Shown here piece after piece: positions 6,501 through 14,946 of a stretch of DNA of 17,491 nucleotides (its first letter is position 1; the number at the start of each line of letters is the position of its first letter). This DNA is from a virus. Its lineage: Duplodnaviria > Heunggongvirae > Uroviricota > Caudoviricetes. The stretch spans positions 1 through 17,491 of the IMG/VR virus record IMGVR_UViG_3300029741_000087; one strand, 5' to 3'. Both the position numbers and the translations under genes were made by a program. The notes under the pieces were generated by a model. That model did no database searches and was not told the DNA's origin. It was given only the letters and a program-made list of their open reading frames with translations.

Positions 6501-6836
6501 TCGGCAAACCTGAGTGCATACAGTAACAGTATTGTGGACACGCCCACGTACTTTGCCTTTGCAAAAGGGGCAGGGCTGATGGGGGAGGCCGGACCTGAAG
6601 CCATCATGCCCCTGACCCGGGCAGCGGATGGTTCACTCGGCGTGCGTGCGGTGGGCAGTATGAACGGCAGTGCGGGTCTGGTGTATTCCCCGGTGTACCA
6701 CATCGCCATTCAGAATGACGGCGCTAACGGGCAGATAGGGCCGGAAGCGGCGGGCACCCTTGTGCAACTGATTGACCAGCGGGTACAGGCGGTGATGTTA
6801 TCCATGCGTCGTGACGGAGGAATGCTGAGTGGATGA
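3594..6836 (+). CDS. H: Tail tape measure protein
   Basis: 1080 aa, Ala/Gln-rich, predicted coiled-coil-like, with a hydrophobic Gly-rich segment. C-terminus (QNDGANGQIGPEAAG...RRDGGMLSG) resembles the lambda H C-terminus as I recall it (NNDGTNGQIGPAAL...RDGGLFSG). Shine-Dalgarno AGGAGAAAGG upstream. Confidence 0.9.
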   Translation: MATLRELIIKISANSQSFQSEIQRASRMGSEYYRTLQNGGRQAAAAAREQCRALAELNSQLTEIRASAVGMTSAFAGAFATGHLISLADEWSSVNARLKQASQSSDEFALSQKVLMDISQRTGTAFSDNATLFARSAASMREYGYSADDVLKVTEAISTGLKISGASAAEAGSVITQFSQALAQGVLRGEEFNSVNESGDRIIRALAAGMGVARKDLKAMADDGQLTADKVVPALISQLGILRDEYAAMPETVSDGITKVENAFMAWVGGANEASGATKTLSGALNGVAGNIDTVATAAGVLVAVGVARYFGNLASGAMSATAGLVTAARNEVALAEAQLRGTQIATARARAAVYRAQQAVAAARGTEMQIAAEARLAVTQERLNRNIAARTAAQNALNSTTAVGSRLMSGALGLVGGVPGLVMLGAAAWYTLYQNQEQARESARQYALTIDEIAHKTPSMSLPEASDNEGRTREALTEQNRLIDEQASRVKSLQEKIAGYQYVLANPGWTTGNGFMINHLTSVKTVTEELAQATEQFAVEQSRLAQMQEKAQSIQDVLAGLEERRVVLIRQQAAEQNKAYQSLLVMNGQHTEFNRLLGLGNELLQQRQGLASVPLRLPQATLDDKQQSALNNTERQLALSRLKGEEKERARLGYAADDLGLVGDTYQEARQRYIRNSMEAWRNNEANKPKSRAGKSGAEKAEDSFSRLLKQQKEQLALAGKNTELAKLKYQTSQGELKTLTEIQKQELLRNAALIDQKKIREQLRAREETLKNDNADARASNDAELLGYGQGERVRERMRELQQIRDGYRQKDADLQSQYQTGDISEDFYRQALAQNAQYLSERLKDQEAFYAESDAQRADWQKGLQEGLSNWVDSASDYASQAAQLATDGISGMVNNITEMLNGNKVEWRSWAASILQEISKVLMNAAIVNGIKMAANSMSGAGGFFGSIGNWLGGAVANAKGGVYTSANLSAYSNSIVDTPTYFAFAKGAGLMGEAGPEAIMPLTRAADGSLGVRAVGSMNGSAGLVYSPVYHIAIQNDGANGQIGPEAAGTLVQLIDQRVQAVMLSMRRDGGMLSG

Positions 6837-7170
6837 GATTAAGACTCTTCACTGGTGTCCCCGGGAAGGGATGCAGGTGACGGAGAAACCGTCGGTGATG
6901 ACGGTGAAGTTTGGCGACGGTTATCAGCAGCGTCGTCCGGCAGGACTGAATGCGCAACTGAAGACCTTTCAGGTGGTTTTTCGGGTGACAACGGATGCTG
7001 AGCGGGAGGCACTGTCCGCGTTTCTGTCATGGCATGGTGGTTACCGGGCTTTTTTGTGGAAGCCCCCGAAACATAACCGGACGGTCAGGGTGGTGTGCCG
7101 GGAGTGGAGTATTACGGATAACGCCCGGTACAGTGATTTCAGTTGCACGATAGAGCAGGTAGTTAGATGA
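6829..7170 (+). CDS. M: Minor tail protein M
   Basis: 113 aa; KFGDGYQQRRPAGLNAQLKTF...HGGYRAFLWKPP...EQVV aligns closely with lambda M (RFGDGYSQRAPAGLNANLKTY...HGGWKSFLWTPP...EQVV) from memory. GTG start overlaps the H stop. Confidence 0.9.
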   Translation: MDEIKTLHWCPREGMQVTEKPSVMTVKFGDGYQQRRPAGLNAQLKTFQVVFRVTTDAEREALSAFLSWHGGYRAFLWKPPKHNRTVRVVCREWSITDNARYSDFSCTIEQVVR

Positions 7171-7368: not shown

Positions 7369-8523
7369 ATGAAAAAAATGACAGTGGCACTTTCTGCTGT
7401 AGCAGTGGCAGTGATGTTTGCTGCGGGGGCGCAGGCAGCAGAAGTTTATAATAAAGATGGTAATAAACTGGATCTTTACGGGCGTGCAACCGCTCTGCAT
7501 TACTTCTCGGATGATAAAGGTAATGACGGAGACCAGACTTATGCTCGTCTCGGCTTTAAAGGCGAAACGCAGATTAATGATCAACTGACCGGATTTGGTC
7601 AGTGGGAATACCAGTTCTCTGGTAATAAAACGGAATCTGAAGGTTCCGCGGGAAATAAAACCCGTCTGGCATTTGCAGGTCTGAGATTTGCAGATGTTGG
7701 TACCATTGATTACGGACGTAACTATGGTATTGCTTACGATGTCGGATCATATACTGACGTACTGCCTGAGTTTGGTGGTGATGGCTGGACGCAGACCGAT
7801 AACTTTATGACGGCCCGAACTTCCGGTGTCCTGACTTACCGTAATACAGACTTCTTCGGACTGGTTGATGGTCTGAATTTTGCGGCGCAGTATCAGGGCA
7901 AAAATGAGCGTGATGACCTTCAGAAGGCTAATGGCGACGGGTATGGTTTCTCGGCCAGCTATGAGTTTGATGGTTTTGGTTTTGTCGCTGCGTATACCAA
8001 GTCAGATCGTACTGATAAGCAGGTTCAGGGGTTGAATGGTACTGCAGATGTTCTTGATCCTGCATCAGGTAAAAAGGTTGGAGAAAAAGCAGTTGACTCA
8101 GGTAGTGTGGCAAAAGGTAAACATGCTGAATTCTGGGGAACTGGTCTTAAATATGATGCCAATAACCTGTATCTGGCAGCAGTGTATTCTGAAACCCAGA
8201 ATATGACGACCTTTGGTGATCAAGGTGTTGCGGATAAAGCTCAGAATATCGAAGCCGTTGTTCAGTATCAGTTTGATTTTGGTCTGCGCCCGTCCCTTGC
8301 CTACCTTCAGTCCCGCGGACAGGATGTTATGGTTGGTGGTGTGAACCATGGCGATCAGGATCTGGTTAAATATATTGATGTCGGTGCGACTTATTACTTT
8401 AACAAGAATATGTCCACCTATGTTGATTATAAAATTAACCTGATTGATGAAAGTGAATTTACCCGGAAAGCCGGTGTTGCGACAGATAATATCGTTGCTG
8501 TGGGTATGACTTATCAGTTCTGA
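7369..8523 (+). CDS. General outer-membrane porin, OmpC/OmpF/PhoE family (phage moron)
   Basis: 384 aa. Cleavable signal peptide [23 protein letters not shown] followed by [15 protein letters not shown]; C-terminal ...VAVGMTYQF with terminal Phe, typical of beta-barrel porins. AAGGA Shine-Dalgarno before the ATG. The gene and its flanks are markedly AT-richer than neighbouring tail genes. Confidence 0.9.
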
Positions 8524-8695: not shown

Positions 8696-8720
8696 CGGGG
8701 CGCGTCTGCGCCCCTTTTTT
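8696..8720 (+). terminator. Intrinsic terminator closing the porin moron, abutting the L start
   Basis: ggggcgc (8697-8703), loop gtct, gcgcccc (8708-8714), then tttttt at 8715-8720. Confidence 0.7.
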
Positions 8721-9441: not shown

Positions 9442-10185
9442 ATGACACAGACTGAATCAGCGATTCTGGTGCATGCCCGGCGGTGTGCGCCAGCGGAGTC
9501 GTGCGGCTTCGTGATAAGCACCCCGGAGGGCGAACGGTACCAGCCCTGCGTGAATATCTCCGCAGAGCCGGAGGCGTATTTTCGTATTACACCGGAAGAC
9601 TGGCTGCAGGCACAGATGCAGGGGGAGATTGTGGCGCTGGTCCACAGTCATCCCGGTGGTCTGCCCTGGCTGAGCGAGGCGGACCGGCGGCTGCAGATAA
9701 AGAGTGCCCTGCCCTGGTGGCTGGTCTGCCGGGGTGAAATTCACCGGTTCCGCTGTGTGCCGCACCTGACCGGACGGCGCTTTGAACACGGTGTGACGGA
9801 CTGTTACACCCTGTTCCGGGATGCATACCATCTGGCGGGGATAACGCTGCCGGATTTTGTGCGTGAGGATGACTGGTGGCGCAACGGTCAGAACCTGTAC
9901 CTGGACAACCTGGCAGACAACGGCTTTTACCGGGTGTCTCCGTCCTGTGCACAGGCGGGCGATATCCTGCTGTGCTGCTTTGGTTCATCGGTGCCGAATC
10001 ATGCCGCCATTTACTGTGGCAACGGTGAACTGCTTCACCATATACCTGAACAACTGAGTAAACGGGAGAGGTATTCAGAGAAATGGCAACGACGAACGCA
10101 TTCTGTCTGGCGTCACCGCCACTGGTCCGCATCTGCCTTCACGGGGATTTACAACGATTTGGTCGCCGCATCAGCCTGTATGTGA
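9442..10185 (+). CDS. K: Tail assembly protein K (JAMM/MPN plus NlpC/P60 domains)
   Basis: Starts MTQTESAIL as in lambda K. JAMM motif HSHPGGLPWLSEAD (HxHx7Sx2D) and an NlpC/P60-like Cys/His pair (DCYTL, NHAAIY). The track's 9181 start overlaps L and is rejected. Confidence 0.9.
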   Translation: MTQTESAILVHARRCAPAESCGFVISTPEGERYQPCVNISAEPEAYFRITPEDWLQAQMQGEIVALVHSHPGGLPWLSEADRRLQIKSALPWWLVCRGEIHRFRCVPHLTGRRFEHGVTDCYTLFRDAYHLAGITLPDFVREDDWWRNGQNLYLDNLADNGFYRVSPSCAQAGDILLCCFGSSVPNHAAIYCGNGELLHHIPEQLSKRERYSEKWQRRTHSVWRHRHWSASAFTGIYNDLVAASACM

Positions 10186-10763
10186 ACACGGCAGCGGAGG
10201 CCATCCGTGCCCTGTCGCTGCAGGTGCCGGGATTCCGCGGTCAGATGAACGAAGGCTGGTATCAGATACGTATTGCCGGTGAGGATACCGCACCGGAGGC
10301 GGTGTACGCCCGTCTTCACGAACAACTGGGTGAGGGAGCGGTCATCCACATTGTGCCGCGACTGGCCGGAGCCGGGGGAAATGGTGTTTTTCAGGTGGTG
10401 CTGGGGGTTGCAGCGATTGTCGGGTCATTTTTCACTGGTGGTGCAACACTGGCGGCATGGGGCGCAGCCCTGAGTGCCGGAGGGCTGACTGCCACCACGA
10501 TGCTGTTCTCACTGGGTGCCAGCATGATACTGGGTGGTGTGGCTCAGATGCTGGCCCCGAAGGCAAAGACGCCGGAGTATAAAAGTACGGATAACGGTAA
10601 ACAGAACACGTATTTTTCGTCACTGGACAACATGATTGCCCAGGGTAACCCGATGCCGGTGCCTTACGGTGAAATGCTGGTTGGTTCACGACGGATATCC
10701 CAGGATATCAGCACCCGTGATGAGGGCGGAGACGGGAAAGTGGTGGTTATCGGACGGGGATAA
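10083..10763 (+). CDS. I: Tail assembly protein I
   Basis: MATTNAFCLASPPLVRICLHGDLQRFGRRI...NGKQNTYFSSLDNM...VVVIGRG aligns with lambda I (MAATHTLPLASPGMARICLYGDLQRFGRRI...VVVIGR) from memory. Overlaps the 3' end of K. Confidence 0.9.
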   Translation: MATTNAFCLASPPLVRICLHGDLQRFGRRISLYVNTAAEAIRALSLQVPGFRGQMNEGWYQIRIAGEDTAPEAVYARLHEQLGEGAVIHIVPRLAGAGGNGVFQVVLGVAAIVGSFFTGGATLAAWGAALSAGGLTATTMLFSLGASMILGGVAQMLAPKAKTPEYKSTDNGKQNTYFSSLDNMIAQGNPMPVPYGEMLVGSRRISQDISTRDEGGDGKVVVIGRG

Positions 10764-10866
10764 AAATAAAAAAATCCCGCAGAGTTAGCGGAGCTGCGGG
10801 AAGAGATACGAAGATTAACTGTAAGGAGTTATTATTATGTCACAGCAAAAAAAACGGTAACGCAGA
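10764..10866 (-). ncRNA. Candidate small RNA, cassette 1 (predicted from promoter and terminator; not a known family by sequence)
   Basis: Minus strand: TTCACA (10897-10892), 16-bp spacer, TATAAT (10875-10870), predicted start near 10864 at conserved GCGUUACC. Intrinsic terminator: hairpin 10800-10776 then U7 (10774-10768). No plausible ORF. Contains AACUCCUUACA. Confidence 0.5.
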
Positions 10867-10896
10867 GAAATTATAAGCGCCACTGGGATTTTGTGA

Positions 10897-10918
10897 AAAT
10901 GTGAAGAATTTCAGAAAT
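10897..10918. promoter_or_regulatory. CRP-like box (TGTGA-N6-TCAGA), cassette 1
   Basis: AAATGTGAagaattTCAGAaat; left half matches the CRP consensus AAATGTGA exactly, right half is TCAGA versus TCACA. Centre is about 43 bp upstream of the predicted minus-strand start. Confidence 0.45.
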
Positions 10919-10996
10919 TTTTTGCTGCAGAGGTGCAGGGAGCTTGCCGGGTATCTGTGGCAGAAGACAGAAAACATCATGCCGGGGTTAAGGGAT

Positions 10997-11096
10997 AAAA
11001 AAATCCCGCAGAGTCCGGAGACTGCGGGACAGAACCGATGAAGATTAACGTTCAAGGAGTTTTGTTTTTATTGACCCGAAAAAACTGTAACGCCCC
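10997..11096 (-). ncRNA. Candidate small RNA, cassette 2
   Basis: Minus strand: -10-like TATCAT (11105-11100), start near 11094 at conserved GCGUUACAG, terminator hairpin 11028-11005 then U7 (11003-10997). Contains AACUCCUUGAA. The -35 is poor. Confidence 0.4.
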
Positions 11097-11126
11097 GGAA
11101 TGATATCTGCCACGGGAACGTACAGA

Positions 11127-11148
11127 AAATGTGAAGAAATTCAGACTT
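11127..11148. promoter_or_regulatory. CRP-like box, cassette 2
   Basis: AAATGTGAagaaatTCAGActt; same spacing to the -10 hexamer and conserved GCGTTAC as in cassette 1. Confidence 0.4.
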
Positions 11149-11230
11149 TTTCTGTCGCAGGTTTACAGAACGGATGACCGCCAGGGTACCAGTGGCGTAA
11201 ATGAGCAGGATGTTGTGGTGTGGCTGAAGC

Positions 11231-11336
11231 AAAAAAATCTCCCGTAATATCGCCGGATACTGACGGGAGACGAATAGTCACCTTAAGGAGGTCTGATAAT
11301 TATTGCTTTTATTGAGCAAAAAAACTGTAACGCTGC
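11231..11336 (-). ncRNA. Candidate small RNA, cassette 3
   Basis: Minus strand: TATAAT (11345-11340), start near 11334 at conserved GCGUUACAG, terminator with perfect 8-bp stem (11271-11264 / 11245-11238) then U7 (11237-11231). Contains GACCUCCUUAAGG. Confidence 0.5.
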
Positions 11337-11366
11337 GTCATTATAGTGGCTACAGGCAATTGCCGG

Positions 11367-11388
11367 AAATGTGAAGAATTTCAGAAAT
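11367..11388. promoter_or_regulatory. CRP-like box, cassette 3
   Basis: AAATGTGAagaattTCAGAaat; same spacing to the TATAAT at 11345-11340 as in cassette 1. Confidence 0.45.
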
Positions 11389-11404
11389 TTTATTCCGTCA
11401 TGAC

Positions 11405-11436
11405 ACAGGCACCCTCCGGGGTGCCTGTCGTTTTCT
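11405..11436 (+). terminator. Plus-strand intrinsic terminator about 40 nt upstream of the J start
   Basis: Perfect 10-bp stem acaggcaccc (11405-11414) / gggtgcctgt (11419-11428), loop tccg, followed by cgttttct. Confidence 0.5.
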
Positions 11437-11478
11437 GGCATAAACAGATTCAGACATCAGACAGGAGAGGGGGACAGA

Positions 11479-14400
11479 GTGGGTAAAGGGGGCGGCAAGG
11501 GGCACACACCGCGTGAGGCGAAGGACAATCTCAAATCCACGCAGATGATGAGCGTGATTGATGCCATTGGTGAGGGACCGGTGGAAGGTCCGGTGAAGGG
11601 ACTGCAGAGTATTCTGGTGAACAAAACCCCGCTGACGGACACGGACGGTAATCCCGTGATACACGGTGTGACCGCCGTCTGGCGTGCCGGGGAGCAGGAG
11701 CAGACACCGCCGGAAGGCTTTGAGTCCTCCGGGGCAGAAACCGCACTGGGCGTGGAGGTGACGAAGGCAAAGCCGGTGACGCGCACCATCACGTCAGCGA
11801 ACATTGACCGTCTGCGGGTCACCTTCGGGGTACAGTCACTGGTGGAGACCACCTCAAAGGGTGACCGTAATCCCTCTTCTGTCCGCCTGCTGATTCAGCT
11901 TGAGCGTAACGGGCACTGGGTGACGGAGAAGGATGTCACCATTAACGGCAAGACCACCTCGCAGTACCTGACGTCGGTGATTCTGAATAATCTCCCTGAG
12001 CGCCCCTTTAACATCCGGATGGTCAGGGTGACGGCGGACAGCACCACGGACCAGCTGCAGAACAGAACGCTGTGGTCGTCATACACCGAAATCATCGATG
12101 TGAAACAGTGCTACCCGAACACGGCGATTGTGGGGCTGCAGGTGGATGCGGAGCAGTTTGGTGGCCAGCAGCTGACGGTGAACTACCATATCCGTGGTCG
12201 CATCATTCAGGTGCCGTCAAACTATGACCCGGAAAAACGCACCTACAGCGGTATCTGGGACGGGAGTCTGAAACCGGCATACAGCAATAACCCGGCCTGG
12301 TGCCTGTGGGACATGCTGACCCACCCGCGCTACGGCATGGGAAAACGCCTGGGGGCCCCGGACGTGGACAAGTGGGCACTGTATGCCATCGGGCAGTACT
12401 GTGACCAGACGGTCCCGGATGGTTTCGGGGGAACAGAGCCGCGGATGACTTTCAATGCGTACCTGTCACAGCAGCGTAAGGTGTGGGATGTCCTGGGGGA
12501 TTTCTGCTCGGCGATGCGCTGTATGCCGGTATGGAACGGCCAGACGCTGACGTTCGTTCAGGACCGTCCGTCGGATGTGGTGTGGCCGTACACCAACAGC
12601 GATGTGGTGGTGGATGATAACGGCGTGGGGTTCCGCTACAGCTTCAGTGCCCTGAAGGACCGGCACACGGCGGTGGAGGTGAATTACACCGACCCGCAGA
12701 ACGGCTGGCAGACCTCCACGGAACTGGTGGAAGACCCGGACGCCATCCTGCGCTACGGGCGCAATCTGCTGAAGATGGATGCGTTCGGCTGTACCAGCCG
12801 CGGTCAGGCCCACCGTGCCGGACTGTGGGTGATAAAGACAGAACTGCTGGAAACGCAGACGGTGGATTTCACGCTCGGGTCACAGGGGCTGCGGCACACG
12901 CCCGGTGACATCATTGAAATCTGTGATAACGACTACGCCGGGACCCTGACCGGTGGACGCATCCTGTCCATCGATGCCGCCAGCCGTACCCTGACGCTGG
13001 ACCGTGAGGTGATACTGCCGGAAGCAGGGACATCGACGGTGAACCTGATTAACGGCAGCGGTAAGCCGGTGCGCGTGGACATCACTGCACACCCCGCCCC
13101 TGACCGGATACAGGTCAGCGTCCTGCCTGATGGCGTGGAGACATACGGTGTGTGGGGACTCTCCCTGCCGTCACTGCGTCGTCGCCTGTTCCGCTGTGTT
13201 TCCATCCGGGAAAACACGGACGGCACCTTTGCCATCACGGCAGTGCAGCACGTACCGGAAAAAGAAGCCATCGTGGATAACGGGGCCACCTTTGAGCCGC
13301 TGTCCGGTTCACTGAACAGCGTCATCCCGCCGGCAGTGCAGCACCTCACGGTGGAGGTGAGTGCCTCAGACGGCCAGTATCTGGCGCTGGCGAAATGGGA
13401 CACGCCGCGGGTGGTGAAGGGCGTGCGCTTCAGTCTGCGCCTGACCAGTGGCAGTGGTGAAAACAGCCGCCTGGTGACCAGCGCTATCACTGCCGACACG
13501 GAGCACCGTTTCAGTGGCCTGCCGCCCGGGGAATACACCCTGACGGTCAGGGCGATAAACAGCTACGGCCAGCAGGGCGAACCTGCCACCACCACGTTCC
13601 GGATTAACGCACCGGCAGCACCGGCCAGCATTGAACTGACGCCGGGGTATTATCAGATAACGGCGGTCCCGCATCTTACGGTGTATGACCCGACGGTACA
13701 ATTTGAGTTCTGGTTTTCGGAGGCAAAAATCGCAGACACATCTCAGGTGGAAACCTCTGCCCGTTATCTGGGGACAGGCAGCCAGTGGAGTGTCTCCGGC
13801 CCGCACATTAAGCCGGGGAAGGATTTCTGGTTTTATGTGCGCAGCGTCAACCTGGTGGGGAAATCTGCGTTTGTGGAAGCCAGTGGCCGGGCCAGCAATG
13901 ATGCGGAAGGGTATCTGGGGCTGTTTCGGGAAAAGATAGGAAAACTGCATCTGGCACAGGGGATGTGGGAGCTGATTGATAACAGCCAGCTTGATGATGA
14001 GATGGCGGAGATGAAGACCACCATCACAGAAACCCGCAATGAAATCACGCAGACGGTCAGTAAAACCCTGGAAGACCAGAGCGCCACCATACAGCAGATA
14101 CAGCGGGTGCAGACAGACACAAATAACGACCTGGCTGCGCTGTACATGCTGAAGGTGCAGAAAACAAAAAACGGCATTCCGTATGTTGCCGGTATTGGTG
14201 CGGGGATTGAGGATGCTGATGGCCAGCCCCTGAGCAATATACTGCTGCAGGCGGACCGTATCGCGATGATTAACCCGGAGAACGGCAACACCACGCCGCT
14301 GTTTGTGGCGCAGGGGAATCAGCTGTTCATGAACGATGTGTTCCTGAAGCGACTGTTTGCGGTGAGCATCACCTCGTCCGGCAATCCCCCGACGTTCTCC

Positions 14401-14946
14401 CTGACGCCGGAGGGCAGGCTGACGGCCCGCAATGCGGACATCAGCGGACATATCAGTGCGAACTCGGGCACGCTGAATAATGTCGTGATAGCGGAGAACT
14501 GTACGATAAATGGCACGCTGAAAGCGGAGAACATTATTGGTGATCTTGTGAAATGTGCAGGGGTGGCTTTTCCGGTGGATGGTAGTTACCTTGCGAACGG
14601 TACACGAACGCTGACGGTGTATGACGATCACAGCTTTGACCGGCAGATTATAATCCCGCCGATAATCTATGTCGGGTCAAAACAGGAATCCCGCACCAGT
14701 AATGACATCTGGACAGAGTGCTTCCTGCATGTTGATCAGAACGGACGCCGGATTTATTCAGGCAGGTCAGTGACAGAGCCGGGAATTTTCAGCGGGATCA
14801 TCGATATGCCAGCCGGTCATGGTCATATCACCCTGAGTTTTACCGTAAGTTCACGACGTCAGAACGGGAGTTTTGGCAGTTCACGTATCAGTAACCTTCA
14901 GGCGATAGTGGTGAAGAAAAACAGCGCGGGGATCAGTATCCGCTGA
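11479..14946 (+). CDS. J: Host specificity / central tail fibre protein J
   Basis: 1155 aa from a GTG start. N-terminus [22 protein letters not shown] and long internal stretches (for example [35 protein letters not shown]) are near-identical to lambda J as I recall it. The C-terminal ~150 aa are more divergent. Confidence 0.95.

What the first reader, a model, noticed from the sequence alone, without database searches (positions are those of the whole stretch)
10764..11400. Three tandem cassettes between I and J, each built like a self-contained minus-strand small-RNA gene
Lambda has no comparable spacer between I and J as I recall it; here about 715 bp are inserted, made of three diverged ~235-bp units. 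On the minus strand each unit has a -10 hexamer (TATAAT, TATCAT, TATAAT) 6-7 nt upstream of a conserved GCGTTAC(A/C)GTTTTTT block, then about 100 nt, then a canonical intrinsic terminator (GC stem plus U7). The three terminator stems differ in sequence (cccgcag.../...ctgcggg in units 1 and 2, tctcccgt/acgggaga in unit 3) but keep the stem-loop-U7 structure, the pattern expected for a selected RNA structure. Nothing else on the minus strand here would need three terminators. No ORF is conserved across units on either strand. This reads as a tandem array of three ~100-nt sRNA genes transcribed antisense to the tail operon.
Basis: partly seen in the sequence, partly recalled or inferred. Interest (0 to 1): 0.85.

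Follow-up and report, generated by a model that had tools for sequence, protein, structure and literature searches.

The report
Three tandem PasB-type prophage sRNA genes
The 715-bp gap between tail genes I and J of this E. coli lambdoid prophage holds three diverged copies of an already known, experimentally validated Hfq-dependent small-RNA gene (PasB / EcOnc22-24); the family is ordinary, but the tandem array and an invariant CRP-like box in front of each copy have not been described.

Summary
The I-J spacer (10764-11478) consists of three units of about 230-240 bp that are 66-75% identical to each other. On the minus strand each unit has a -10 hexamer, a GCGTTAC block six bases downstream, an RNA body of about 80-100 nt, and a hairpin followed by U7.

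The unit is the homologue of PasB, an 83-nt sRNA of EPEC E2348/69 that was confirmed by Northern blot and is lost in a Δhfq mutant. It is very probably also the homologue of EcOnc22/23/24 of EHEC Sakai, which is about 85 nt and bound by Hfq. Both lie in the same I-J spacer, antisense to the tail genes.

- **Conservation:** 204 units were collected from about 180 prophage loci. All keep the hairpin plus U-run, an (ARN)n run, CUCCUU (an anti-Shine-Dalgarno sequence) and UUAAUCUUC. No ORF is conserved.
- **What looks new:**
  - Arrays of 2-4 diverged cassettes occur in at least 43 of 5426 complete E. coli genomes. The published survey reports no tandem copies.
  - A TCTGA-N6-TCACA box is present in 203 of 204 units and resembles a CRP site.
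- **Open points:** the true 5' end is unresolved (96-103 nt versus 80-87 nt), CRP dependence is untested, and the targets are unknown.

Interest is moderate.

The parts
10083..10763 (+). Tail assembly gene I (left border of the spacer)
   Evidence: ORF list. Pfam Lambda_tail_I, E = 3e-16.
10768..10863 (-). sRNA 1 (PasB-type). It is 96 nt if transcription starts at 10863, or about 80 nt if it starts at about 10846.
   Evidence: Covariance model hit 10768-10863, 99.3 bits. BLASTN to the published 83-nt PasB gives 80.6% over 72 nt, E = 7e-12. Fold.
10775..10801 (-). Terminator hairpin 1 (UCCCGCAG / CUGCGGGA), followed by U7 at 10774-10768
   Evidence: Sequence, fold and terminator scan.
10870..10897 (-). 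Promoter 1: -35 TTCACA (10897-10892), 16-nt spacer, -10 TATAAT (10875-10870)
   Evidence: Promoter scan, 11 of 12 matches.
10900..10915 (.). Box 1: TGTGA-AGAATT-TCAGA (CRP-like dyad), centred 44.5 bp upstream of 10863
   Evidence: Sequence. The half-sites are present in 203 of 204 homologous units.
10997..11093 (-). sRNA 2 (PasB-type). It is 97 nt from 11093, or about 81 nt from about 11077.
   Evidence: Covariance model hit, 87.1 bits. BLASTN to PasB gives 81% over 79 nt, E = 3e-10. Fold.
11004..11029 (-). Terminator hairpin 2 (UCCCGCAG / CUGCGGGA), followed by U7 at 11003-10997
   Evidence: Sequence, fold and inverted repeat I3.
11100..11105 (-). -10 hexamer of unit 2 (TATCAT); no good -35 element
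   Evidence: Sequence and alignment. The same hexamer occurs in the d07 allele group, which is the only unit in many prophages.
11130..11145 (.). Box 2: TGTGA-AGAAAT-TCAGA
   Evidence: Sequence and conservation.
11231..11333 (-). sRNA 3, a diverged paralogue. It is 103 nt from 11333, or about 87 nt from about 11317.
   Evidence: Covariance model hit 11233-11333, 61.7 bits, E = 4e-9. Whole-unit nhmmer with the E2348/69 unit gives E = 7.5e-15. Fold z-score -3.0.
11238..11270 (-). Terminator hairpin 3 (UCUCCCGU...ACGGGAGA, 15 bp with one bulge), followed by U7 at 11237-11231
   Evidence: Sequence and fold.
11340..11345 (-). -10 hexamer of unit 3 (TATAAT); no good -35 element
   Evidence: Sequence and alignment.
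11370..11385 (.). Box 3: TGTGA-AGAATT-TCAGA
   Evidence: Sequence and conservation.
11405..11428 (+). Plus-strand hairpin followed by CGTTTTCTGG, between the last cassette and J. Degenerate remnants of it sit upstream of boxes 1 and 2.
   Evidence: Terminator scan, alignment of the units and junction alignment, z = 3.3-3.8.
11479..14946 (+). Tail tip gene J (right border of the spacer)
   Evidence: ORF list. Pfam Ig_J, FNIII-A_GpJ, Phage-tail_3 and Ig_GpJ_C.

Best explanation
The I-J spacer carries three independent promoter-to-terminator cassettes ("sRNA morons") on the strand opposite to the tail operon. Each cassette makes an 80-100-nt Hfq-dependent sRNA of the PasB / EcOnc22-24 family.

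**Shown by sequence and homology.**
- Each cassette has a -10 hexamer and an intrinsic terminator with U7, which is the Hfq proximal-face module.
- Each has a run of 3-5 ARN triplets, then CUCCUU (anti-Shine-Dalgarno), then UUAAUCUUC just upstream of the terminator.
- Validated homologues occupy the same position in EPEC and EHEC.

**Inferred.**
- In the lysogen the late operon is silent, so the cassettes are transcribed on their own.
- The RNAs bind Hfq and pair in trans with host and prophage mRNAs through the single-stranded CUCCUU...UUAAUCUUC region, typically at ribosome-binding sites.
- The three bodies are only 65-81% identical, so the array should supply three different specificities rather than extra dose.
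- Each unit is closer to an allele in another phage (about 85% for units 1 and 2) than to its neighbours. The array was therefore probably built by duplication of the whole spacer or by unequal recombination between phages, not by recent duplication.

**Hypothesis (about 0.4).** The invariant TCTGA-N6-TCACATTT box upstream of each promoter is a cAMP-CRP site that ties expression to carbon status.

**Secondary possibility.** During lytic growth the RNAs are perfectly complementary to the I-J part of the late mRNA, so they could also act in cis.
For: **Homology and position.**
- PasB is placed in L001 between the I and gpJ genes.
- The EcOnc22/23/24 peaks lie in the Sakai I-J spacers, with the offset control.
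- BLASTN and nhmmer link PasB to the window units. The covariance model scores the window units, PasB and the Sakai loci alike.

**Hfq dependence of the homologues.** See PMC8550237 Table S2 and PMC4104026 Table S2.

**Anatomy.**

**Conservation.**
- All 49 distinct RNA bodies keep a hairpin plus a U-run.
- One allele has a compensatory change in the stem, CCCACAG/CUGUGGG.
- A run of at least 3 ARN triplets occurs in 86% of bodies against 4% of shuffles.
- The box is exact in 72 of 73 units from loci that were retrieved without using the box, and its N6 spacer takes seven different forms.

**Autonomy.** Lambda has only 60 bp at this position.

**Relatedness of alleles.**

**Support for the CRP idea.**
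- The box has TGTGA 5/5 and TCAGA 4/5, plus the TTT flank.
- PasB is higher in overnight LB culture than in exponential DMEM culture, the opposite of the CRP-repressed Spf.
- Units 2 and 3 lack a -35 element.
Against: - There are no transcript data for this window or for the unit 2 and unit 3 alleles.
- Only unit 1 has a full sigma-70 consensus.
- Stem covariation is weak: 2 of 8 pairs show double changes, and the slid controls score similarly on covariation.
- The 5' end is ambiguous.
  - The TATAAT-based start gives 98 nt in E2348/69 against the reported 83 nt, and 90 nt in Sakai against a band of about 85 nt.
  - A second TAnnnT inside GCGTTAC(A/C)GT predicts 83 nt in E2348/69 and 74 nt in Sakai.
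- The box sits at -44.5 from the first start, which is not a canonical CRP position. It sits at about -60.5 from the second start, close to the class I position of -61.5.
- The growth-condition contrast also fits RpoS or oxygen limitation.
- Unit 3 alleles were seen only inside arrays.
Confidence: 0.8

Rival explanations
1. Only one cassette is a working gene, probably unit 1 next to I. Units 2 and 3 would be decaying leftovers of spacer duplication or recombination.
For: Units 2 and 3 have no recognisable -35 element, and unit 2 has the weaker hexamer TATCAT. Unit 3 alleles were found only in arrays, and they score lowest against the family model, 62 bits. No expression data exist for these alleles.
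Against: Every unit keeps the box, the -10, GCGTTA, the ARN run, CUCCUU and a strong terminator. The unit 2 allele group, with TATCAT, is the sole unit in many prophages. The same 3-unit array is kept at 94-96% identity in about 14 complete genomes, and the 4-unit array is kept in about 28.
Confidence: 0.1
2. The cassettes act mainly in cis. The antisense RNAs would pair with the I-J stretch of the late tail mRNA, or their transcription would collide with late transcription. Either effect would tune J expression or mRNA processing rather than regulate host genes.
For: The RNAs are perfectly complementary to the late transcript by position. The location between I and J is strictly conserved in all loci.
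Against: PasB has 37 Hfq-mediated partners in RIL-seq, 30 of them CDS or 5'UTR regions elsewhere in the genome (Table S5). The RNAs do not overlap the J ribosome-binding site or any coding sequence. In lysogens the late mRNA is absent while the sRNA is abundant. The two modes are not mutually exclusive.
Confidence: 0.07
3. The functional feature lies on the tail strand: either a small protein (MKINV...ENVKIFRNFIPS, 39-50 aa) or hairpins that stabilise the mRNA. On this reading the minus-strand signals are incidental.
For: A tail-strand ORF in one frame is open in some homologues, for example the Sakai type at 39 aa. An AAGGAG motif is present on the plus strand of each unit.
Against: - The ORF is absent or truncated in the most frequent alleles and in all three window units.
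- Its start codon alternates between ATG, ACG and ACA. A single base next to the -10 hexamer switches it between 22 and 41 aa.
- Changes within the box spacer are non-synonymous and show no codon-position bias.
- The minus-strand RNA has been seen directly in homologues.
Confidence: 0.03

Closest known systems
PasB sRNA of EPEC O127:H6 E2348/69 (Pearl Mizrahi et al. 2021, PMC8550237; survey by Zhu, Shabalina and Storz 2026, bioRxiv 10.64898/2026.05.13.724894)
   Same: It occupies the same slot (the I-J spacer) on the same strand (opposite to the tail genes). It has the same box, -10, GCGTTA, U-run, ARN run, CUCCUU and UUAAUCUUC, and the same CCCGCAG/CUGCGGG terminator with U7. Units 1 and 2 are 81% identical to the 83-nt RNA.
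   Different: - E2348/69 has one unit in a 240-bp spacer, whereas the window has three diverged units in 715 bp.
- Unit 3 has a different terminator and is not found by BLASTN with the 83-nt query.
- The survey reports a minimum distance of 28 kb between pasB copies and contrasts the Pas sRNAs with tandem duplicates. It does not analyse promoters.
- PasB is not in Rfam 15.
EcOnc22 / EcOnc23 / EcOnc24 of EHEC O157:H7 Sakai prophages Sp15, Sp14 and Sp11 (Tree et al. 2014, PMC4104026 Table S2)
   Same: These are Hfq-crosslinked RNAs in the I-J spacers, on the strand antisense to I and J. They give a Northern band of about 85 nt that is destabilised in Δhfq. The Sakai unit scores 86.8 bits with the family model.
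   Different: Each Sakai prophage has a single unit. The link to PasB is not noted in either paper. My assignment relies on a coordinate offset of about 140 bp between genome versions. That offset was measured at AgvB (1.94 Mb) and is assumed to hold at 2.2-2.9 Mb.
Tandem paralogous sRNA genes (OmrA/OmrB in E. coli, PrrF1/PrrF2 in Pseudomonas, LhrC1-4 in Listeria); from established knowledge
   Same: They are adjacent, independently terminated paralogues that share a regulator-binding promoter and a conserved core but have diverged 5' parts.
   Different: Those genes are chromosomal and belong to host regulons. The genes here sit inside a phage late operon, vary from 1 to 4 copies between prophages, and each copy is closer to an allele in another phage than to its neighbours.
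Prophage anti-sRNAs AgvB and AsxR (Tree et al. 2014)
   Same: They are short Hfq-dependent sRNAs encoded as autonomous units at conserved moron sites of lambdoid prophages of pathogenic E. coli.
   Different: They sit at a different site, downstream of PR'. There is no sequence or Rfam match in the window, although the AgvB model does find its own locus. PasB partners are mostly mRNAs, not sRNAs.
Phage morons (Juhala et al. 2000 concept, as cited in PMC4104026)
   Same: This is extra DNA between two genes that are adjacent in relatives (60 bp in lambda), and it has its own promoter and terminator.
   Different: The cargo is non-coding RNA. It is oriented against the operon and is present in multiple copies.

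Membership tests
PasB / EcOnc22-24 sRNA family | Located in the spacer between tail genes I and J of a lambdoid prophage, on the strand opposite to them | tested here: met
   Window: I ends at 10763, J starts at 11479, and the signals are on the minus strand. The reference loci have the same layout.
PasB / EcOnc22-24 sRNA family | Sequence homology to the published 83-nt PasB RNA | tested here: met
   BLASTN gives unit 1 at 80.6% over 72 nt (E = 7e-12) and unit 2 at 81% over 79 nt (E = 3e-10). Unit 3 matches only through the whole-unit profile (nhmmer E = 7.5e-15; covariance model 61.7 bits, E = 4e-9), so it is a diverged paralogue.
PasB / EcOnc22-24 sRNA family | Rho-independent terminator with a long U tail at the 3' end | tested here: met
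   All three units have a hairpin followed by U7. All 49 distinct homologous bodies keep it.
PasB / EcOnc22-24 sRNA family | Conserved single-stranded core upstream of the terminator (the proposed seed) | tested here: met
   CUCCUU is present in all three units. UUAAUCUUC is present in units 1 and 2 and is GUGACUAUUC in unit 3. The region is unpaired or weakly paired in the folds. Zhu et al. place the PasB seed in this region.
PasB / EcOnc22-24 sRNA family | Transcript of about 83-85 nt that depends on Hfq for stability | not testable with these tools
   This is known only for the E2348/69 and Sakai alleles. The predicted lengths here are 96/97/103 nt or 80/81/87 nt, depending on the start site.
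Phage moron (autonomous insert in an operon) | Extra DNA between genes that are adjacent in related phages, with its own promoter and terminator | tested here: met
   The spacer is 715 bp against 60 bp in lambda. Each unit has a -10 hexamer and a terminator.
cAMP-CRP-dependent promoter | 22-bp site matching TGTGA-N6-TCACA | tested here: met
   The site is TGTGA-N6-TCAGA, with AAA and TTT flanks, in all three units. The half-sites are exact in 203 of 204 units while the N6 spacer takes seven forms. Comparison with the consensus is from memory; no position-weight matrix was run.
cAMP-CRP-dependent promoter | Site centred at a canonical position (-41.5, -61.5, -71.5...) | tested here: inconclusive
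   The centre is at -44.5 from the TATAAT-predicted start. It is at -60.5/-61 from the start predicted by the second TAnnnT, which coincides with the annotated PasB 5' end in E2348/69.
cAMP-CRP-dependent promoter | Expression depends on crp/cya and is repressed by glucose | not testable with these tools
   The only support is indirect. PasB is higher in overnight LB than in exponential DMEM, the opposite of Spf.
AgvB / AsxR anti-sRNAs | Match to Rfam RF02702 or RF02703 | tested here: not met
   There is no Rfam hit in the window at gathering threshold and none among sub-threshold hits. The AgvB model does detect the Sakai AgvB locus.

The most novel reading that the evidence does not exclude
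The I-J spacer of lambdoid prophages is an expandable cassette site. It accumulates one to four diverged PasB-type sRNA genes, each behind the same invariant CRP-type box. Cassettes would be exchanged between phages by recombination at the conserved box, terminator or spacer ends. A prophage could in this way couple a battery of Hfq sRNAs with different seeds to the carbon and energy state of its host.
Probability: 0.3. Interest if true: 0.6.

Novelty: new member of a known kind. Interest (0 to 1): 0.4.

Why it matters
Prophage-encoded Hfq sRNAs rewire the regulation of core and virulence genes in EPEC and EHEC. PasB is among the most connected accessory sRNAs in EPEC, yet its function, promoter and regulator are unknown.

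This work adds the following:
- **Family link.** PasB and EcOnc22-24 are one family that sits at a fixed slot in the tail operon.
- **Arrays.** Some STEC prophages carry 2-4 diverged copies in tandem. These copies are invisible to default BLAST with the 83-nt query and are not annotated in RefSeq.
- **Candidate regulator site.** Every copy is preceded by an invariant CRP-like box, which gives a directly testable regulatory hypothesis.
- **Natural seed variants.** The diverged copies form a natural series of seed variants that could be used to map targets.

None of this changes the general picture of phage sRNA morons, so the value is incremental.

Tried and rejected
- **Rfam.** There were no matches at gathering threshold, and only chance-level matches at E ≤ 10. 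PasB has no Rfam family, so this says nothing against the RNA.
- **Tandem Repeats Finder.** It did not see the array because the units are too diverged.
- **RNAalifold on the MAFFT alignment.** It returned no structure, because the unit 3 type terminators were misaligned. I replaced it with per-sequence folds and a covariance-model-fitted alignment. Those showed that the stem is mostly invariant and that covariation is weak.
- **AgvB or AsxR identity.** Rejected.
- **Tail-strand mini-ORF.** Rejected.
- **EcOnc22 coordinates.** At first they seemed to fall upstream of the unit. This was resolved by measuring an offset of about 137-146 bp between the paper's coordinates and NC_002695.2 at AgvB. 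The remaining assumption is that the same offset holds at 2.2-2.9 Mb.
- **Other readings of the box.**
  - Cra (TGAA-N4-TTCA) fits less well, because the fourth base of TGAA varies while the C of TCTGA and the CACATTT stretch are invariant.
  - FNR matches only 3 of 5 positions in each half-site.
  - Treating TTCACA as a -35 element fails because it lies 24 nt from the -10.
  - These readings rest on consensus sequences recalled from memory.
- **Junction homology.** Internal junctions compared with the pre-J region plus the I 3' end give only a modest signal (z = 3.3-3.8). Origin by duplication of the whole spacer is therefore plausible but not shown.
- **Range outside Escherichia.** The scan of species representatives found true units only in E. 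albertii and in two probable contaminant contigs.
Full report
**1. What is in the sequence**

The window is the tail region of a lambdoid prophage.
- **Gene order.** Minor tail protein M is at 6829-7170. A porin gene follows, then L, K and I (10083-10763), then J (11479-14946) and a tail-fibre gene.
- **Spacer length.** I and J are 715 bp apart, against 60 bp in phage lambda.
- **Repeat units.** The spacer is three head-to-tail units spaced 230 and 240 bp apart. They are 66-75% identical overall, which is too diverged for Tandem Repeats Finder.

On the minus strand each unit contains, in this order:
- a 16-bp dyad, TCTGA-N6-TCACA (plus-strand coordinates 10900-10915, 11130-11145 and 11370-11385);
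- exactly 24 nt later, a -10 hexamer (TATAAT, TATCAT, TATAAT);
- 6 nt later, GCGTTAC(C/A)G followed by a run of 6-8 T;
- an A-rich stretch, then CUCCUU;
- UUAAUCUUC (GUGACUAUUC in unit 3);
- a GC-rich hairpin followed by U7.

Only unit 1 has a good -35 element, giving TTCACA-16-TATAAT at 11 of 12 matches.

**2. What it is**

*PasB.* The literature search led to PasB, one of five "pathogenicity-associated" sRNAs found by Hfq RIL-seq in EPEC E2348/69.
- Table S6 of PMC8550237 places it at NC_011601.1 1466343-1466261 on the minus strand. It is 83 nt long, and its Northern probe is AATCCCGCAGTGATCGCGGAGCT.
- That stretch lies in a 240-bp spacer between the tail assembly protein and gpJ, both on the plus strand.
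- The sequence there is a single copy of the window's unit, and the probe is the terminator.
- PasB drops by log2 6.8 and 2.4 in Δhfq. It has 37 RIL-seq partners, mostly CDS or 5'UTR regions.

*EcOnc22-24.* Tree et al. 2014 listed Hfq-CRAC peaks EcOnc22, EcOnc23 and EcOnc24 in Sakai prophages Sp15, Sp14 and Sp11. They give a band of about 85 nt that is destabilised in Δhfq.
- In NC_002695.2 all three coordinates fall inside I-J spacers, on the strand opposite to I and J, each 22-24 nt from the J start.
- The paper's coordinates run about 137-146 bp lower than NC_002695.2. I measured this with the Rfam AgvB hit against EcOnc01a.
- With that offset the peaks fall within the unit's RNA, at 2902854-2902914 inside 2902837-2902926.
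- I therefore regard EcOnc22-24 and PasB as one family. This step is an inference that depends on the offset.

*Match to the window.*
- The published 83-nt PasB hits unit 1 (80.6%, E = 7e-12) and unit 2 (81%, E = 3e-10) by BLASTN.
- Unit 3 is reached only with the whole-unit profile (E = 7.5e-15) or the covariance model (61.7 bits).
- Rfam 15 has no family for this RNA.

**3. Comparative evidence**

*Data set.* Two pattern scans of IMG/VR, one anchored on the box and one on the seed plus terminator, were combined with fetched reference loci. An nhmmer profile over these gave 204 full units in about 180 loci.

*Conservation of the RNA features.*
- All 49 distinct RNA bodies from the first set fold into a terminal hairpin followed by a U-run.
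- The stem is nearly invariant, so formal covariation is weak: 2 of 8 pairs show double changes, and 7 cells.
- One allele shows a clean compensatory change, CCCACAG/CUGUGGG. The unit 3 type replaces the inner and outer stem but keeps CCCG/CGGG.
- A run of at least 3 ARN triplets lies directly 5' of CUCCUU in 86% of bodies, against 4% of shuffles. ARN repeats are the known motif for the distal face of Hfq, as cited in PMC4104026.

*The tail-strand ORF.* A tail-strand ORF (MKINV...ENVKIFRNFIPS) is open in some alleles. It is absent or truncated in the commonest alleles and in all three window units. Its start codon and length are unstable.

*Host range.* Among 100,044 species-representative genomes, true units occur only in Escherichia albertii and on two probable contaminant contigs. 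This agrees with the published restriction of the Pas sRNAs to Escherichia and Shigella.

**4. The array**

Most loci have one unit, but arrays of two, three and four units exist.

In 5426 complete E. coli genomes:
- 785 genomes have at least one match;
- 43 genomes have a place that covers at least 80% of the 715-bp spacer;
- about 14 of these carry the same 3-unit array at 94-96% identity over about 712 bp, and none is identical to the window;
- about 28 carry a span of about 913 bp, which is the 4-unit array, mostly in non-O157 STEC;
- spans of about 484 and 423 bp correspond to 2-unit arrays;
- nothing is annotated under any of these matches.

The window's units 1 and 2 are about 85% identical to alleles that occur alone in other prophages, but only 66-75% identical to their neighbours. 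Unit 3 relatives were seen only in arrays. The internal junctions keep faint similarity to the pre-J hairpin region. This points to duplication of the whole spacer, or unequal recombination between phages carrying different alleles, and not to recent duplication.

The 2026 survey of Pas sRNAs reports a minimum distance of 28 kb between pasB copies. It explicitly contrasts the Pas sRNAs with tandem duplicates such as OmrA/B and PrrF1/2. Its default BLAST settings and the 83-nt query would not detect neighbours at 80% identity. Within the literature I could search, the arrays are therefore undescribed.

**5. The box**

*Conservation.* TCTGA-N6-TCACA is exact in 203 of 204 units. This includes 72 of 73 units from loci retrieved without reference to the box. 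The N6 spacer takes seven different forms, and the flanking AAAA and TTT are also fixed. The box is the most conserved part of the unit, more so than the -10 hexamer. Its pattern of variation is that of a protein-binding dyad and not of a codon series.

*Resemblance to a CRP site.* It matches the CRP consensus (from memory, AAATGTGA-N6-TCACATTT) with one perfect half-site plus flank and one half-site at 4 of 5.

*Position relative to the two candidate starts.*
- Its centre is at -44.5 relative to the start predicted from TATAAT, which is not a canonical position.
- A second TAnnnT hexamer lies inside the conserved GCGTTAC(A/C)GT block.
  - It predicts starts just after the T-run, at about 10846, 11077 and 11317.
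  - That puts the box at -60.5/-61, near the class I position.
  - It gives RNAs of 80, 81 and 87 nt.
  - In E2348/69 it reproduces the annotated 83-nt 5' end.
- In Sakai the same model gives 74 nt, and the TATAAT model gives 90 nt, against a band of about 85 nt.
- The 5' end is therefore unresolved. The possibilities are two promoters, 5' processing, or imprecise size estimates.

*Indirect support.* PasB is more abundant in overnight LB culture than in exponential DMEM culture, the opposite of the CRP-repressed Spf. This fits CRP activation but equally fits stationary-phase or low-oxygen control. I rate the CRP reading at about 0.4.

**6. Mechanism**

*Shown.* There are three autonomous units, each running from promoter to terminator, on the strand opposite to the tail operon. 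They are homologous to RNAs that are made in lysogens, bind Hfq and need it for stability.

*Inferred.*
- Each unit yields an Hfq-bound sRNA. The U7 tail would bind the proximal face and the ARN run the distal face.
- The RNA pairs with the ribosome-binding regions of mRNAs through CUCCUU...UUAAUCUUC.
- The three bodies differ enough to have different target sets.
- The RNAs could also pair with the late I-J transcript during lytic growth. This is a secondary possibility and was not tested.

**7. Verdict**

The kind of element is already known (PasB / EcOnc22-24). The window adds new, diverged members in an arrangement that has not been described, plus a testable regulatory box. Interest is moderate.

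Noticed in passing
window 7369-8523 (+), with a hairpin at 8697-8714: A complete 384-aa Gram-negative porin gene (Pfam Porin_1, E = 6e-144) sits between tail genes M and L. A strong plus-strand terminator-like hairpin (GGGGCGCGTCTGCGCCCC followed by T6) lies just after it. No deposited phage record carries this insert at megablast level. It looks like a second moron in the tail operon, a prophage porin in the manner of Lc/NmpC.
   Followed up: partly
window 11405-11428 (+): There is a 10-bp plus-strand hairpin followed by CGTTTTCTGG immediately upstream of the J ribosome-binding site. It is conserved next to the J-proximal unit in most loci; in E2348/69 it is followed by TTGTTTTTGT. In other loci it is replaced by an unrelated TTAAAACCGGTAATGGC flank. 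It may act as a plus-strand terminator or stabiliser that shields J from non-antiterminated transcription. Its function is unknown.
   Followed up: partly
window 10854-10859, 11084-11089, 11324-11329 (-): A second possible -10 hexamer (TACCGT, TACAGT, TACAGT; TAnnnT in all alleles) lies inside the conserved GCGTTAC block, 16 nt downstream of the TATAAT-type hexamer. It predicts RNAs of 80-87 nt, matches the annotated 5' end of PasB in E2348/69, and places the CRP-like box at about -60.5. If the upstream start is used instead, the 5' U-run can pair with the ARN stretch (folds), which would mask the ARN stretch.
   Followed up: partly
L002 365-1280 (E. coli O91 RM7190); also L072, L122, L123, L131, L134, L148: These I-J spacers, about 913 bp long, hold four cassettes. 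One of them (unit 2 of that array) has a degraded -10 (GTGCAT) and an altered core (CGCCAA...UUAGUCAAC). It may be a decaying copy.
   Followed up: partly
L199 (Parendozoicomonas haliclonae, 460-bp contig) and L200 (Collinsella sp. MAG, 8.7-kb contig): Genuine PasB-type units (90.5 and 79.2 bits) occur in genome records of organisms that are unlikely to host lambdoid coliphages. The likely cause is contamination or mis-binning of E. coli prophage DNA in those assemblies.
   Followed up: no
NC_002695.2 against the coordinates in PMC4104026 Table S2: The EcOnc coordinates published for Sakai are about 137-146 bp lower than the current RefSeq version at 1.94 Mb. Anyone mapping those sRNAs onto NC_002695.2 will misplace them unless this is corrected.
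   Followed up: partly
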